A stretch of 64,000 nt of DNA from Podarcis bocagei (Eukaryota), in the NCBI GenBank assembly GCA_964188305.1, contig OZ076890.1; one strand, 5' to 3'. A program made the position numbers. This document shows, in pieces, positions 36,172-42,100 of the stretch. Within the stretch, counting starts at the first letter, position 1; each line of letters begins with the position of its first letter.

Positions 36172-39100
36172 AAGAAATGTTTAAAAATTGGCTGTACTTC
36201 TTCCATAATTTCTTTTCAAAATTCAGACTTCACATAAAATAGTTATGTCATTATATATATAGAGCGTGTCTTGAACACAAACTACGATTAAAACACTGTT
36301 AATCAGGGCAGAGAAGGTCTCTCTCCTAATGGTGGCCCTCTCTAACGTCCCCTTCAAGCTAGGTATATTACGCCACTTCATAGGATCAAACCTACACATG
36401 ATGACAGACAAAGGCAGAGACAGAGGATGGAGGGTATTCCCAAATGGTATCAATTGGTGCCTGGTAGAGAGGGTGTTTATTGATTCTGATTGATTCATTA
36501 ACTGATCCAACAGAGGGTTGGCAGTGGTTACTTTTGCCCACCAGGGTATAGTTACAAGCACTTGCATTTCAATTATTAAAAGCACTTTGAGAATGCCATC
36601 TCTTTCACCAAGAAGCTAATCCACCTGGGGACAAAAATACAGGACTTGTTCCTTTCATTGGCTCATAACATTGATCTTATTGGTGTAGCATCCATCCCAC
36701 TGCTTAACAACCTCTGTGATTGATTATAGCTGGTGATTGTGCTGAGGGATTTGGACATGCATGCTAAGGCCACATGAGACTTCACAGCCACCATGGCCAC
36801 CATGGAATACATCACTGGTTCAATACCCATCTCTCTGAGCCTGAAACCAGACCTACTCTTACCTAGAGCGGCTCTCCTGTGTTGTTAACCCCTGGACTTT
36901 TACCTTTAGACACTGACCCTGGTTTGTGTTTTAGACCCATACTAATTAACTGTGCTTGTCTCCAGTTTATCTTTGACTTTGACTCTGCATTCTTGACTTA
37001 TCCAACCACTGTTTGGTAAGTCTTGAGGCCTTAGCCTCCTTGGATGCTACAGACTTGGGACCTATCCACAGACTACACCTGCTTCAGTAAGATAAAAAAA
37101 ACAACCCTGACCTATTACAATAAATTGAGAGGAGTGTTTTGAAACTGGGTGATAGATTTTGATTCAGGATGAAATATGATCCTAGACTGCTGAGAGGAGA
37201 CTAAGATAGGCTGGAGCTATGAGGGAATAAGAACACACCTACTGTTAAGTACAATATAATGAGATCTATAGTTTGTGTGCATTTATGCACCTGCATTTAA
37301 CCACTCTGCAAGTTATGAGTTTGTCTAGTTATGCAAATGCCAGTGTGTTTGTCTCATCTGCATACCCGTAAAAGTGTAAACAGCACATCAGCTGTTAGTA
37401 TGCTTAATTGGAAATATTAGTTTTGTGGCTGTCTTCACAAAACCTCTTAAAACAAAATATGTGCAACCAAATGTTTCTTCCAATTTTATGTGAAACTTTA
37501 ATCCATCCACAATTTTGAATGCATGATTTTGCTAAACTATGTTTAGCAGGCATTAATTGCTTACTTACCTTATGTCTTCCTAGCTTGGGGGAAACCAATC
37601 AATGTTATACTTCTTCTTCCATGTGCAAGCTTTAGTATGTTGTCAAAATTAATATAGTCCTCTAAACTTTATTTGAAACACTAAAATATAATTTATCCAA
37701 GGATTACATCTGCTATGTTTTTAAAGTTCCCATATGGTGGGAAGGTACAAGATTCCAAACCCAATTCCCTAAAAAAAATCTCCAGACAGATTTTTAGACT
37801 GTTTTCAAAGTAGTTTGAAAATGTTGAGTCCTTATTTTCCTCTCGGTTATCATTTCTTAGATTATTTCAAAAATATAAGTTTCAGATAAGCTATGCAACT
37901 GTTCTTCAACATAGATTTAGACAAGAGAAGCATAGAAATGTTGGTTTATAAATCTAGCAAAAGTATTGAGAAGTAGAAAATAGGAGCAGATTATAACTTA
38001 AAGTCATTTTTGAACCATGCTCCAGAAAAGCATGTGGGGTTATTTACTTTTGCTTCCAAGTTTCAGTTACAGGATTCTGATTTCTGAACACTTTATTCCA
38101 ATATATTCAAATTAAAATCTTTTTCCCCCAGTAAAGAAGCCTTTACTAATCATATTAATCATGAATAAATTTGCATTCCAAATGCAAGTCTAGTTTTAAA
38201 TTGTCATTTAAGAATTGTTCCACAAAGGAGTAAACATATTTGCTTTGAAACATATTATACCTTTCTTCCCCATATCTCATAAAGAGAGTCAAGTCAATTT
38301 CATTTTATCTTCATCCTATTTTGTAAATAAAATGAATCCAATTACAGGCAATAAATCACACTTTTTAAATGCTCATTATAGTGAATTTCCATACAATATA
38401 TAGTTTAACATAGTCCTTGCGGGCTCAGTACAACCCTACAGTATGTTATTTAATTAGGAAAATGGAACATGACCTCTTTTTGAATGCCTGTTAAGCTTAC
38501 TCCTTGATTGGTGGGATAGCATTAGCAGTGTTTCTCAAACTTGGGTCCGCAGCTGTTGTTGGACTACAACTCCTATCATCCCTGACCACTGGTCCTGCTA
38601 GTTAGGGATGATAGGAGCTATAGTCCAACAACAGCTGGGGACCCAAGTTTGAGAAACACTGTAATCTAGAGGGTCATTAAAGACTGTGTTTCTTCAAGTG
38701 CTTGAAATCTTTATTATCTCTGTATTATTGACATTTATGCAAAAGAGAGAAAGAAATGATAAACCTTTTTTTGAACAAAGAGAATATACAGAACAATTCA
38801 ATATCCAACAATTTTATTATATGCTTGCATGCTTCAACCAACACATAAAGATAGAAAAATAAATCTGAAAATAAATCTTCCTCTAATAGTGCTTTGCTTA
38901 GATTACTAATAGTATTTGAAAACATTTACTCTGAGACAGTCAGAGATAAAGCCAGATATGTTGACCTATAGTACAAAGGATAGAAAAGTGAACAGACATA
39001 GGAATGACAAGTGAAAAAGCTGAGCAGGTTATATTAATAAGGAAAGGAATAAGGAGGGATGAAGTTTAAAATCTAAATGATTAAAATGTGTTTCTGTGCT

Positions 39101-42100
39101 TCACAGCACAGTATCAAAAAGTGATTGCATCTTGGAAATGTTTCCCATTCACAAGCCCTATCTAAGCTGACCATACCTAGCAAAGATTGATGAGCCTCTA
39201 CAATTAAAAAGAGACCGGTAATTTTATTTTTCAATGCTCTCTGAAAAGGTGGGTGGTGAAAGGTCAGTTTAGTCTTTGTCAAATCTGTTGCTTTTAATCT
39301 TTTGAAAGTGTTTTTCTAGCCAAACCAATAAGTTTAAGATGTACTATCAGATAACATTTAATTCATTAGAGAAAGCTGGATTTAGAAGTAAGGAAGAATT
39401 TCTTAGAAATAAAATGTGTAGAGTTCAAAATAGTAATTATGACAAATACAATGTAAACACATTCCCTATTGAATTGTCTATAAGGATGTCCTGGTCCCAA
39501 AAAGGTGCCCATGGGACAAGGCAATAAAGCAATTTGGCTATTGTGTCATAAATAAGAGGTAAACTGAGGCCTCTTGAGCCTCTGTCTTCATGCCAAATTC
39601 TTGCTTTGCCCCCTTTTTTGGAGAACTGCAATTTCTTAAAGGGTAGAGAGAGAACTGCTTCTCCTTCACTCCATGCCACGCCTCGCAGGGTGTTATCTCT
39701 GCACCTTTGGATTGGTCAGGTCATGTATGAAGTGCTAGGTTCCTCAGATCCAAGGTGAAGGCATCTAAGAAGGTCCCATCTCTGGTTTCACAGACTCTGA
39801 TGCTGGGGGTGGGGTCAGGGTTCAGCAGGTTCATGGCTACATTCAGTGGATTCAGTGATCAGCAACATCACACTAATAGTCAGAAGCCTGGTCCGGCTCA
39901 CCATCTGCTGCCATTATAGCCTCTGACCCAGTGTTCTGGGTGTGCCTGACCTCTGGGATTGTGACAAAGCTCTGGATAAAAAACTTCCTATGCTTGCAGG
40001 GTACATAGGCAAGGTACCAATTTCGCTACAGGAAAGGTAGATATCAGTATCATTCCTTGCAACATAACTGTAACTCAAAACAACACATTGAGCCTCATTT
40101 ACTATCTAGTTGGAAGTTATAGGGAGAAGAGAAGGGAAGCCATTCCAGCATTCTGCCAATCAAGGAGGAAGCCTGACAGGCATTCAAAAAGAGGTCATGT
40201 TCCATTTTCCCAATTAAGTAACATACCGTAGGGTTGTACTGACATCCCACAAATTTACAACCAATGTACTGTCACACAACTTATCAACTTATCATGGCTA
40301 CTTGTGCTCACTTTTGACCTTTCTTTGCTCTGTTCATAGCCAGTTACCATGCAGCCTGAGCAAGTCTAAAGCTGCAACAAGGTAGAGTCTACCTTAAAAT
40401 GCAAAACTGTAGTTTACATCTCACGCAAAACTATATCTAGATGTTTCAGTGCCTGCTCCATAATGCAACTGCCATATCATCTGAGCAGTTTGTGCCTAAT
40501 GCAGATGGGCTTGCAGAGCAAAACAGGGAAGTATAAAGCAGATATCTGGACACAACTGCAGAAGTGAGGATTCTGTGGAGCTTAGCTGAACATACCTAAT
40601 ATTCAGGTTTCAATATATTTTGCTGTTGGGAATTTGCACAGTCCTAAAGAGTTATGGTGCTCAAATCTAGAGACAGATTGCACTATGAGAAACAGTCTGT
40701 TGTTTACAGACAAAAATTTGGAAAGAATCTTATAAGACAAAAGTCCTTGGTAACCATAATTTCATCTCAAAGTCAAAGTAATTTTTGAGAAGATTAGAGC
40801 TTTATATTTAATCAATAAAACAACAATGACAAAAATATATAGCTCTGTAGAAAACAATAGCTTATAATGTCAGTGTTTAAGGAAAAAATGCCTATAACAA
40901 AATATAGATTTCAAACTTCAATATATATATATATAAATATATATATATAGCAAAAAACAAATCAATGTCAATTGAGGGTTCAATTATTTTATCATGCTAT
41001 TCTGCTTCCAAATATAGTGGGAAAGTTTGGAGAACCACATTCCGGCTGAATAAGACAAGATATGAACAAGCTTTACCTCATTAATGGAGCCTCTCCACAC
41101 AAGCCGGAAAATGAAACAAAGTCCTCCCTGAGTTATAGTTTCCTGAACAAACTGAGATACTGAAGCTATTAACCATAGTTCCTTGTTAGAAAACTATAGC
41201 TAACGGAAAACTTCCTGGTTTGCTCAGAGACGGAGTGAGGTGGGTGTGGTCTGCCCCGGGTGCCATCCCTGAGAGGGGGTGACATAGCCGCCAAACACCC
41301 CCCCCCAGAGGCCCACAGCAGCCGGCGCGCACACGCCGGGATGTGTGCGGTGACTGGCGTGCACCTCCAGGAGGCGTGTGGCAGACCCCTGGATGCTAGC
41401 CCCGCCCCCACAGGTGGCTAGCCCTGCCCCTGGGTGCACACCACTCCGGGTGCTGGAGCACCTAGCTCCGCCTCTGGGTTTGCTGGCTGACTCGTGTGAT
41501 TGAAGGAGCAAAGGGGCTGCATAGATGGGCAAAATACTTGCTCATATCTTGAGCTATTAAGCTTAGGTAAGTCATACCCTGAGAGCCCCTATTTTGAAAC
41601 TCCCATCTTCTTGGGACTCCCTTCTCACTGAGTATTTCTGACTGCGGGATCACACCCAGTAGCTCCTTCAGCTTTTTGAAAATAGCCTTAATTCGAGAGT
41701 GCGTATCTGACTACACTCAGTTTTCTCTTGCCTCTGTATCCTGAAGCCCAGGAGAACATGATCACTTCCTCCCAAGTTTCTGAGCACTTCCACCGCATAT
41801 CCATTTTGCATATGCAAGTTTTAATAAACATAAATCTGAGATATACCTATTGTATACTGATACTAAAAAAACACATAGTAGGTCCCAAAAGAGTATACAG
41901 ATGATTCCATAGGGATTGCAGTTGAAAGGTTTCCTATGATTCAGGTAACATAGCTATCATATAGACAGTAACATTTTTTCTGGTATGCATTTCATATATT
42001 TATCAAATTTTATTTCGTGATGTTCACACACCTTGTAAGCACAAAGTATCAATCAGACATTTACAAAAAATAGTGTACTGAAGATGTGAGGAACATAGAA

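What the first reader, a model, noticed from the sequence alone, without database searches (positions are those of the whole stretch)
38425..40242. Unexplained 87-bp inverted repeat (93% identical) with arms ~1.64 kb apart
38425-38511 matches the reverse complement of 40156-40242 at 81/87 positions, ungapped. Five of the six differences are transitions, so a transcript of either strand would fold into a long duplex with G-U and A-C pairs, the type of structure ADAR edits and that can promote back-splicing. I see no TSD and no recognisable TE identity in the arms. Possible explanations are TIRs of an undescribed foldback element, the scar of an inversion or template switch, two copies of an unknown short repeat, or a maintained RNA pairing.
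Basis: partly seen in the sequence, partly recalled or inferred. Interest (0 to 1): 0.65.

Follow-up and report, generated by a model that had tools for sequence, protein, structure and literature searches.

The report
Likely scar of a small inversion
Two 87-base copies facing each other 1.6 kb apart in non-coding, reptile-like DNA are real, and look most like the leftover of a small local inversion or copying error, not a mobile element or a working RNA structure; this is an ordinary kind of genomic scar.

Summary
38425-38511 matches the reverse complement of 40156-40242 at 81/87 positions, ungapped, with five transitions and one transversion. It scores 128 bits, against at most 41.7 bits in 20 shuffles.

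The arm occurs only twice in the 64-kb window. Homology stops abruptly at all four arm ends. No target-site duplication of 2-10 nt is present. Two real TIR elements in the same window still show theirs.

No Pfam domain appears in any frame of 34.9-43.8 kb. No Rfam family matches the arms. The arms do not fold on their own.

The 7 nt just inside the left arm are the reverse complement, at 6/7, of the 7 nt just outside the right arm. An inversion with staggered breaks, or a "3-1-4-2" template switch, predicts exactly this crossed layout (anchored p 0.004-0.02, post hoc). That junction also lies 14 nt from a 61-bp-stem palindromic MITE.

Best reading, confidence about 0.45: a neutral scar of a roughly 1.64-kb micro-inversion with duplicated breakpoints. 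The genome-wide copy number and the outgroup orientation would decide it, and neither could be checked here. There is no evidence for or against RNA editing or back-splicing.

The parts
38425..38511 (+). Left arm (b), 87 nt
   Evidence: Inverted-repeat arm, 81/87 to the reverse complement of 40156-40242. At all six differences it carries A or T where the other copy, in the same orientation, carries G or C.
38512..38518 (+). Candidate second breakpoint duplicate (c'), 7 nt just inside the left arm
   Evidence: TGGGATA is the reverse complement of 40243-40249 at 6/7, with no offset at either junction. Anchored null from 60000 random sites: 0.0038 for this layout, 0.0075 for either inversion layout, 0.023 for any of six flank relations. 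This was found post hoc and is suggestive only.
38519..40155 (.). Spacer, the segment proposed to have been inverted (1637 nt)
   Evidence: Apart from the nested MITE it is unique in the window. No Pfam family in six read-through frames. No Rfam family apart from sub-threshold hairpin hits on the MITE. Its orientation relative to an ancestor could not be tested.
38526..38661 (.). Palindromic MITE-like hairpin inside the spacer (61-nt arms, 14-nt loop; weaker palindrome 38517-38668)
   Evidence: the repeat finder I2, 93% complementary. Relatives lie at 13057-13209 and 15057-15203. Sub-threshold Rfam miRNA-hairpin hits, the best being mir-5408 at 56 bits against a gathering score of 90. Its stem foot lies 14 nt from the left arm's inner end.
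40156..40242 (-). Right arm (b'), 87 nt
   Evidence: Partner of the left arm. A 58-aa stop-to-stop frame crosses it on the minus strand (40095-40271) but has no homologue among longer proteins.
40243..40249 (+). Candidate second breakpoint original (c), 7 nt just outside the right arm
   Evidence: CATCCCA; see 38512-38518.

Best explanation
The pair is a neutral scar of one local rearrangement: a micro-inversion of about 1.64 kb whose breakpoints were duplicated. The inferred ancestral order is A-b-X...Y-c-D, and the present order is A-b-c'-Y'...X'-b'-c-D. Here b is the 87-nt arm and c is a 7-nt block. Two routes give this layout. In the first, two staggered breaks (87 nt at one end, 7 nt at the other) are filled in and the middle piece is re-joined in reverse. 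In the second, one replication template switch copies about 1.73 kb from the opposite strand and returns (switch-point order 3-1-4-2). The break or fork stall at the c end may have been provoked by the palindromic MITE 7-14 nt away. The copies have since drifted to 93% identity. What is shown: the repeat, its sharp ends, the absence of a TSD, the crossed 6/7 block, and the adjacent palindrome. What is inferred: the inversion itself, the route that produced it, and the role of the palindrome. No function is proposed.
For: 1) The arms are real and there are only two copies in 64 kb. nhmmer run without filters finds the two arms at E 1e-30 and 2e-29; the next hit is at E 1.5.
2) All four homology boundaries are sharp.
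3) There is no direct repeat of 2-10 nt at the outer ends, with the boundaries shifted from -3 to +5. The best partial matches are 5/10 and 3/6. Neither arm on its own is flanked by a direct repeat.
4) Internal controls show that TSDs survive in this window. A Tc1/mariner-type MITE at 18661-18939 has TA on both sides. The hairpin MITE at about 15067-15203, whose own arms are only 88% complementary, keeps an 8-nt flanking repeat at 7/8.
5) The crossed block 38512-18 / 40243-49 matches at 6/7 with seamless junctions. This is the layout the model predicts. Anchored p is 0.0038, or 0.0075 for either mirror layout.
6) The b|c' junction lies 14 nt from the foot of one of only 4 long hairpins (arms >= 50 nt) in the window. 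By my arithmetic the chance of this is about 4 x 8 x 14 / 64000 = 0.007.
7) There is precedent. 17 of 29 Drosophila inversions carry inverted duplications of non-repetitive breakpoint sequence. Their median size is 321 bp and the shortest is 46 bp; 6 have both breakpoints duplicated and 12 have one (PMC1885836, passages read). [quoted passage not shown]
Against: The crossed block is only 7 nt and was noticed post hoc. Allowing any of six flank relations, p rises to 0.023. An unanchored local alignment of the same flank scores only p = 0.08, and chance matches of similar size occur elsewhere in the flanks.

A strand-composition test for inversion gave no support. The keto skew of the spacer is -0.006, against -0.028 +/- 0.042 in 40 other windows, a likelihood ratio of 0.82. 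GC skew is opposite in sign to both flanks, but AT skew is not.

The published precedents differ in scale. The Drosophila cases are chromosomal inversions, and the human-chimp template switches span tens of bases and were explicitly short-range.

Whether the arm is single-copy in the genome is unknown.

The one-sided substitution pattern is not predicted by the model. At 7 of 7 differences, counting the block, the left copy has A/T and the right copy G/C.

The MITE may simply have inserted later.
Confidence: 0.45

Rival explanations
1. The arms are the terminal inverted repeats of an old non-autonomous cut-and-paste DNA transposon of about 1.8 kb (about 1.67 kb before the MITE went in), from a family not recognisable here.
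For: The arms have sharp outer and inner ends, as TIRs do. The arm reads CAGT from its second base, which resembles Tc1/mariner termini. In the anole, Tc1/mariner TIRs range from 15 to 311 bp, and non-autonomous elements with unrelated interiors are common (PMC3014272, passages and Tables 1-2 read). The window is rich in small DNA-transposon-like elements.
Against: No TA, TWA, 8-nt or any other 2-10-nt duplication flanks the arms at any boundary shift from -3 to +5. Other elements in the window keep theirs. None of the TIR starts printed in the anole tables equals the arm's start (the species of this window is unknown). There is no transposase trace in six frames. No further copy or fragment of the arm or the interior occurs in 64 kb. 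The model gives no reason for the crossed 7-nt block.
Confidence: 0.2
2. The arms are two independent copies of an unknown short dispersed repeat that happen to lie 1.7 kb apart in opposite orientation.
For: Other dispersed repeats in the window reach the same identity; for example 54866-54939 and 62487-62560 are 93% identical. No eukaryotic genome could be searched, so the copy number is unknown.
Against: Both copies begin and end at the same base. The 87-nt unit has no TIR, no tail and no flanking direct repeat around either copy. The arm profile finds nothing else in 64 kb. By my arithmetic, two copies placed at random in 64 kb would lie within 1.73 kb and in opposite orientation about 2.7% of the time.
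Confidence: 0.15
3. During repair of a break or a short template switch, 87 nt were copied in reverse orientation from 1.7 kb away and inserted, without inverting the spacer. On this reading the 7-nt block is chance.
For: The same sharp ends and lack of a TSD apply. Template-switch types that create a single inverted repeat are commoner than the double type in the published set: 23% against 1% of events (PMC5453318). The skew test does not favour inversion.
Against: No microhomology is evident at either junction. It leaves the crossed 6/7 block unexplained.
Confidence: 0.12
4. The pairing is kept by selection because a transcript needs the long duplex, for example to promote back-splicing or as an editing substrate. 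This concerns function, whatever the origin of the repeat.
For: The in-silico duplex is -137 to -140 kcal/mol on either strand, and five of six differences are transitions. The window as a whole has a small strand skew (keto skew -0.028, 40 windows). Such a skew could reflect transcription of the minus strand; that link is recalled knowledge and an inference.
Against: A 5:1 transition excess is what neutral decay gives. Only 2 or 3 of the 6 changes keep a pair as G-U; the rest are mismatches. No exon-like domain lies between the arms, no Rfam family matches, and the arms have no structure of their own (z from -0.22 to +1.95). The region is CpG-poor, AT-rich, repeat-bearing DNA.
Confidence: 0.03

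Closest known systems
Inversions flanked by inverted duplications of breakpoint sequence (staggered-break model; Ranz et al. 2007, PMC1885836)
   Same: Non-repetitive sequence is present once at each end of a segment, in opposite orientation, with no TE termini. Duplicate sizes of 46 bp to 1.9 kb bracket 87 nt. Duplicates there average about 88% identity. Cases exist with both breakpoints duplicated, and cases with only one.
   Different: Those are large chromosomal inversions in Drosophila, established by comparison with outgroups. Here the proposed inverted piece is only about 1.64 kb, in a vertebrate, and no outgroup was available. The second duplicate is only 7 nt.
Template-switch mutations, four-point model, type 3-1-4-2 or 3-1-2-4 (Loytynoja and Goldman 2017, PMC5453318)
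   Same: One switch-and-return event produces an inverted spacer flanked by two inverted repeats (type 3-1-4-2) or one (type 3-1-2-4), with seamless junctions and no TSD.
   Different: The published events were found as clusters within tens of bases, and the authors did not model long-range switches. This one would need about 1.73 kb copied from the other strand. The length distribution in that paper is in a supplement I could not open.
Non-autonomous Tc1/mariner or hAT elements of lizards (Novick et al. 2010, PMC3014272)
   Same: TIR-bounded, non-coding, 0.2-3.4 kb. Tc1/mariner TIRs reach 311 bp. The arm has CAGT near its tip.
   Different: All those families have a TA or 8-bp TSD and many copies. 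Here the TSD was tested and is absent, and no other copy was seen in the window.
Inverted-repeat pairs such as inverted Alus that form ADAR-edited or circRNA-promoting duplexes (recalled knowledge, no paper read here)
   Same: Two inverted copies 1-2 kb apart could form a duplex of about 87 bp if transcribed.
   Different: Those pairs come from a high-copy SINE family and lie in known introns flanking exons. Here there is no family, no known transcript and no exon.

Membership tests
Inversion with duplicated breakpoints (staggered breaks / 3-1-4-2 template switch) | Two inverted copies of otherwise non-repetitive sequence bound the segment | tested here: inconclusive
   There are two copies and no more in 64 kb. 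Genome-wide uniqueness could not be tested.
Inversion with duplicated breakpoints (staggered breaks / 3-1-4-2 template switch) | No target-site duplication and no transposon termini | tested here: met
   No 2-10-nt direct repeat at boundary shifts from -3 to +5. Positive controls elsewhere in the window keep their TSDs.
Inversion with duplicated breakpoints (staggered breaks / 3-1-4-2 template switch) | Sequence from the second breakpoint is duplicated in the crossed layout b-c' ... b'-c | tested here: inconclusive
   A 6/7 block with seamless junctions, anchored p from 0.0038 to 0.023 depending on how many layouts are counted. The unanchored test gives p 0.08. Published cases with only one duplicated breakpoint exist, so this feature is not obligatory.
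Inversion with duplicated breakpoints (staggered breaks / 3-1-4-2 template switch) | The spacer is inverted relative to the ancestral or outgroup order | not testable with these tools
   No eukaryotic genome collection was open. The strand-skew surrogate was uninformative (LR 0.82).
Cut-and-paste DNA transposon (Tc1/mariner, hAT, Chapaev, PIF) | Terminal inverted repeats | tested here: met
   87 nt, 93%.
Cut-and-paste DNA transposon (Tc1/mariner, hAT, Chapaev, PIF) | Superfamily-specific TSD (TA; 8 bp; TWA), as listed in PMC3014272 | tested here: not met
   The flanks are ...GC and CA.... No match at any k from 2 to 10 or any shift.
Cut-and-paste DNA transposon (Tc1/mariner, hAT, Chapaev, PIF) | Terminal motif (hAT YARNG; Chapaev CAC; Tc1 CAGT directly after TA) | tested here: inconclusive
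   The arm starts TCAGTA. CAGT is present from base 2 but is not preceded by TA. CAGTA fits 4 of the 5 positions of YARNG (motifs).
Cut-and-paste DNA transposon (Tc1/mariner, hAT, Chapaev, PIF) | Multiple copies in the genome | not testable with these tools
   Only the window could be searched, and it holds 0 further copies.
Foldback elements (definition recalled) | Long arms built of short tandem sub-repeats, plus a TSD | tested here: not met
   No tandem array overlaps either arm. No TSD.
DIRS-like retrotransposons (definition recalled) | Inverted terminal repeats without a TSD, plus an internal region complementary to the repeat ends, plus reverse transcriptase and tyrosine recombinase genes | tested here: not met
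   The repeats and the lack of a TSD fit. However, no internal match to the arms was found and no RT or recombinase domain in six frames.
Functional intronic RNA duplex (editing or back-splicing) | Transcribed, flanking an exon, with editing or back-splice reads or with covariation | not testable with these tools
   Only the in-silico duplex energy is available. No exon-like domain lies between the arms. A single pair of arms gives no covariation test.

The most novel reading that the evidence does not exclude
The arms are the ends of an undescribed low-copy mobile element that inserts without a target-site duplication (a foldback-like or recombinase-driven element). Alternatively, the duplex is maintained because a transcript uses it. 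Neither reading is excluded, because copy number, orthologues and RNA data could not be examined.
Probability: 0.06. Interest if true: 0.5.

Novelty: new member of a known kind. Interest (0 to 1): 0.15.

Why it matters
It matters little on its own. If the reading is right, this is one more example showing that small inversions carry their own polarity mark: duplicated breakpoints show which arrangement is derived. It would also suggest that palindromic MITEs can seed such events in a vertebrate genome. In practice it is a caution for genome scans. An isolated inverted repeat with sharp ends and no TSD need not be a transposon or an RNA structure. The crossed-flank test used here is a cheap way to recognise rearrangement scars from a single sequence.

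Tried and rejected
1) Tandem or circular-unit idea: that each arm is about one unit of a roughly 94-nt tandem repeat, because the right arm's outer flank resembles the left arm's end plus its flank at 10/11. Equally good off-diagonal matches occur at unrelated places, and unanchored alignments of all four 40-nt flanks against the arms and each other give p >= 0.076. Dropped. The same applies to apparent partial arm ends in the outer flanks and to microhomology at the junctions.
2) TSD search at k = 2-10 and shifts -3 to +5, including each arm treated as a separate insertion: nothing found.
3) Strand-skew test for inversion: uninformative.
4) Coding reading. The 58-aa frame across the right arm has no homologue among proteins of 103-2000 aa; the shorter length class was not searched. 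Six-frame Pfam scans of 37900-40800, 34900-37901 and 40800-43801 returned 0 families. I scanned 10 of the window's 33 frames of >= 95 aa; only three hits appeared, all below cut-off, at E 0.054-0.094.
5) RNA family reading. 0 Rfam matches at gathering score in the whole window and 0 tRNAs. At E <= 1 in 38000-40700 there were 7 hits: 6 sub-threshold miRNA-hairpin hits on the MITE and one weak lncRNA-fragment hit (SMAD5-AS1_3) at 38586-38708. None touched the arms.
6) Taxon by protein. The frame 57688-58104 gave no hit. A text search for 'mir-5408' found 0 papers.
7) The exact 35-nt arm core in genome contigs: 0 matches. This collection holds only bacteria and archaea, so the result says nothing about the source genome.
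8) Whether the nested MITE has lost its own TSD, which would mark a breakpoint. Its 8-nt flanks match 3/8. A sister copy at 13 kb matches 1/8 and the one at 15 kb matches 7/8 (compared by eye). With three copies this is undecided.
9) Assembly artefact: unlikely. The copies differ at 7% and are separated by unique sequence.
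Full report
What is there. The window has no N. It is AT-rich, with GC 0.33-0.45 per 2 kb, and strongly CpG-depleted, with a median observed/expected of 0.16. This is the composition of a methylated vertebrate genome.

I take it to be non-human and probably squamate.
- A recalled 15-nt Alu motif has 0 matches at up to 2 mismatches in 64 kb.
- The window carries small palindromic MITEs, tRNA-like SINE copies and a TA-flanked MITE. The first 15 bases of that MITE's TIR match, by eye, 12/15 positions of the anole TcMar-N9 consensus printed in PMC3014272.
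- The best, sub-threshold, Rfam hit of the nested hairpin is mir-5408. I recall this as a lizard miRNA family but could not confirm it; 0 papers mention it.
The species was not established.

The observation. The repeat finder gives arms 38425-38511 and 40156-40242, 87 nt, 93% complementary, 1644 nt apart. The direct comparison is 81/87, ungapped, with five transitions and one transversion. The pair scores 128 bits (E 6e-32). The best inverted self-match in 20 shuffles of the window was 41.7 bits, and the pair is the strongest of the six inverted self-matches in the real window.

Anatomy.
- Homology stops at the same base in both copies at both ends.
- A profile of the two arms, run without filters, finds only the two arms in 64 kb (E 1e-30 and 2e-29; next hit E 1.5). 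The spacer without its MITE and 1 kb of each flank are unique in the window.
- Neither arm folds on its own; z-scores are 1.95, 0.86, -0.22 and 0.65.
- No tandem sub-repeats lie in the arms.
- No Rfam family reaches its gathering score anywhere in the window. At E <= 1 the only hits in 38000-40700 are sub-threshold miRNA-hairpin matches on the nested palindrome and one weak lncRNA fragment.
- Six read-through frames (stops as X) of 34900-43801 contain no Pfam family. The locus is therefore non-coding for about 9 kb, and the spacer holds no transposase, reverse-transcriptase or recombinase trace.
- The 58-aa frame over the right arm has no relative among longer proteins.

Transposon test. No direct repeat of 2-10 nt flanks the pair at any boundary shift from -3 to +5, and neither arm alone is flanked by one. 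This is meaningful because TSDs survive in this window. The Tc1/mariner-type MITE at 18661-18939 has TA on both sides. The hairpin MITE near 15.1 kb has arms only 88% complementary, which is more decayed than our pair, yet it keeps an 8-nt flanking repeat at 7/8. In the anole, all hAT families have 8-bp TSDs and YARNG tips, all Tc1/mariner families have TA, and Chapaev has TWA (PMC3014272, passages and Tables 1-2). The arm starts TCAGTA, with no TA before CAGT. A defining feature of cut-and-paste elements was therefore tested and not met.

Inversion test. An inversion made by staggered breaks, or by one switch-and-return of the replication template, turns A-b-X..Y-c-D into A-b-c'-Y'..X'-b'-c-D. 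This predicts a second inverted repeat in a crossed position: just inside one arm and just outside the other. The 7 nt after the left arm (38512-38518, TGGGATA) are the reverse complement of the 7 nt after the right arm (40243-40249, CATCCCA) at 6/7, with no spare base at either junction.

Among 60000 random sites of the window with the same geometry, a block this good occurs at frequency 0.0038 for this layout. The frequency is 0.0075 for either mirror layout and 0.023 for any of the six flank relations I looked at. I found it after looking at several relations, and an unanchored alignment of the same flanks is not significant (p 0.08). I therefore treat it as suggestive only.

A second coincidence points the same way. 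The b|c' junction lies 14 nt from the stem foot of the 61-nt-arm palindromic MITE, one of four such hairpins in 64 kb. By my arithmetic the chance is about 0.007. Long palindromes are known to stall forks and provoke breaks (recalled knowledge), so the MITE may have triggered the event. It may equally have inserted later.

Results that do not help the model. The strand-composition test is neutral. The spacer's keto skew is -0.006, against -0.028 +/- 0.042 in 40 other windows, a likelihood ratio of 0.82. GC skew is reversed relative to both flanks, but AT skew is not.

All six differences in the arms, and the one in the 7-nt block, have A/T in the left copy and G/C in the right copy when both are read in the same orientation. 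The two-sided sign test gives 0.016 by my arithmetic, and no model here predicts this. The left arm sits in 29-32% GC DNA and the right arm next to a 48-51% GC stretch. Very local differences in substitution bias or in biased gene conversion are a possible cause, but this is only an inference.

Comparison with what is known. In Drosophila, 17 of 29 fixed inversions carry inverted duplications of non-repetitive breakpoint sequence. Their median size is 321 bp, the shortest is 46 bp and the largest about 1.9 kb. Mean identity is about 88%. Six have both breakpoints duplicated and twelve have one. They are explained by staggered breaks (PMC1885836, passages read; its Table S5 was not seen).

[quoted passage not shown] It also describes 1-3-4-2/3-1-2-4, one repeat with an inverted spacer (23% of events) (PMC5453318, passages read; its supplementary figures were not seen). 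The present case has the same layout but an intermediate scale. Its roughly 1.64-kb spacer is far smaller than the fly inversions and far larger than the published template switches.

Foldback and DIRS-like elements were considered and fail on sub-repeats, on the internal complementary region and on coding traces. The definitions of those families are recalled.

The RNA idea. Either strand, if transcribed, could form a duplex of -137 to -140 kcal/mol. The transition bias is what neutral decay gives, though. Only two (plus strand) or three (minus strand) of the six changes remain wobble pairs. Nothing shows transcription, an exon between the arms, editing or conservation. The reading stays untested and is not refuted.

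What stayed unchecked. No eukaryotic genome, read or transcript collection was available. One protein search, the representative search, and the structure and complex tools were left unused, because nothing here is a protein.

Verdict. The repeat is real and non-random. It most likely marks a neutral small inversion or template switch with duplicated breakpoints (confidence about 0.45). The rivals are the ends of a decayed transposon (0.2), a chance pair of a short repeat (0.15), and an inverted templated insertion without inversion (0.12). Interest is low.

Noticed in passing
window 38425-38518 versus 40156-40249: All 7 differences between the two copies (6 in the arms, 1 in the 7-nt block) have A/T in the left copy and G/C in the right copy when read in the same orientation. 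The left copy lies in 29-32% GC DNA and the right next to a 48-51% GC stretch. Sign test about 0.016; unexplained.
   Followed up: partly
window 38517-38668, 13057-13209, 15057-15203: Three copies of a palindromic hairpin MITE family with tips CAGKS...SMCTG. The 15-kb copy has an 8-nt flanking repeat at 7/8, which is hAT-like. The 38.5-kb and 13-kb copies do not (3/8 and 1/8, by eye). The 38.5-kb copy gives sub-threshold Rfam miRNA hits: mir-5408 at 56 bits, mir-609 at 50 bits.
   Followed up: partly
window 18659-18941: A 279-bp Tc1/mariner-type MITE with TA on both sides and 22-nt TIRs. It is full of CpG-containing sub-repeats of the CGCAAGACGAA kind, and these create the only CpG-rich spot of the window (o/e 1.22). 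It looks like a repeat, not a promoter island.
   Followed up: yes
window 54864-54996 and 62475-62560: Another hairpin repeat with 50-nt arms that are 96% complementary and a 33-nt loop, plus a related copy 7.6 kb away at 93% identity.
   Followed up: no
window 34121-34389 and 58819-59066: Two copies (84-86% identical) of a SINE-like repeat whose end resembles a tRNA-derived head. ARAGORN calls no tRNA in the window.
   Followed up: no
window 41001-41750 and 7251-8250: Two GC-rich islands (GC 0.53-0.57, CpG o/e 0.32-0.66) in otherwise AT-rich DNA. The long frames there have no Pfam match. Their nature is unknown.
   Followed up: partly
whole window: The plus strand has a small but consistent excess of A+C over G+T (keto skew -0.028 +/- 0.042 over 40 windows). 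This could reflect transcription of the minus strand or replication direction. No exon was found.
   Followed up: no
window 42837-42878: A 16-nt unit, TCAGGTTACATACGCT, repeated 2.6 times. It is probably the inside of another small MITE of a kind I recall from squamate genomes.
   Followed up: no
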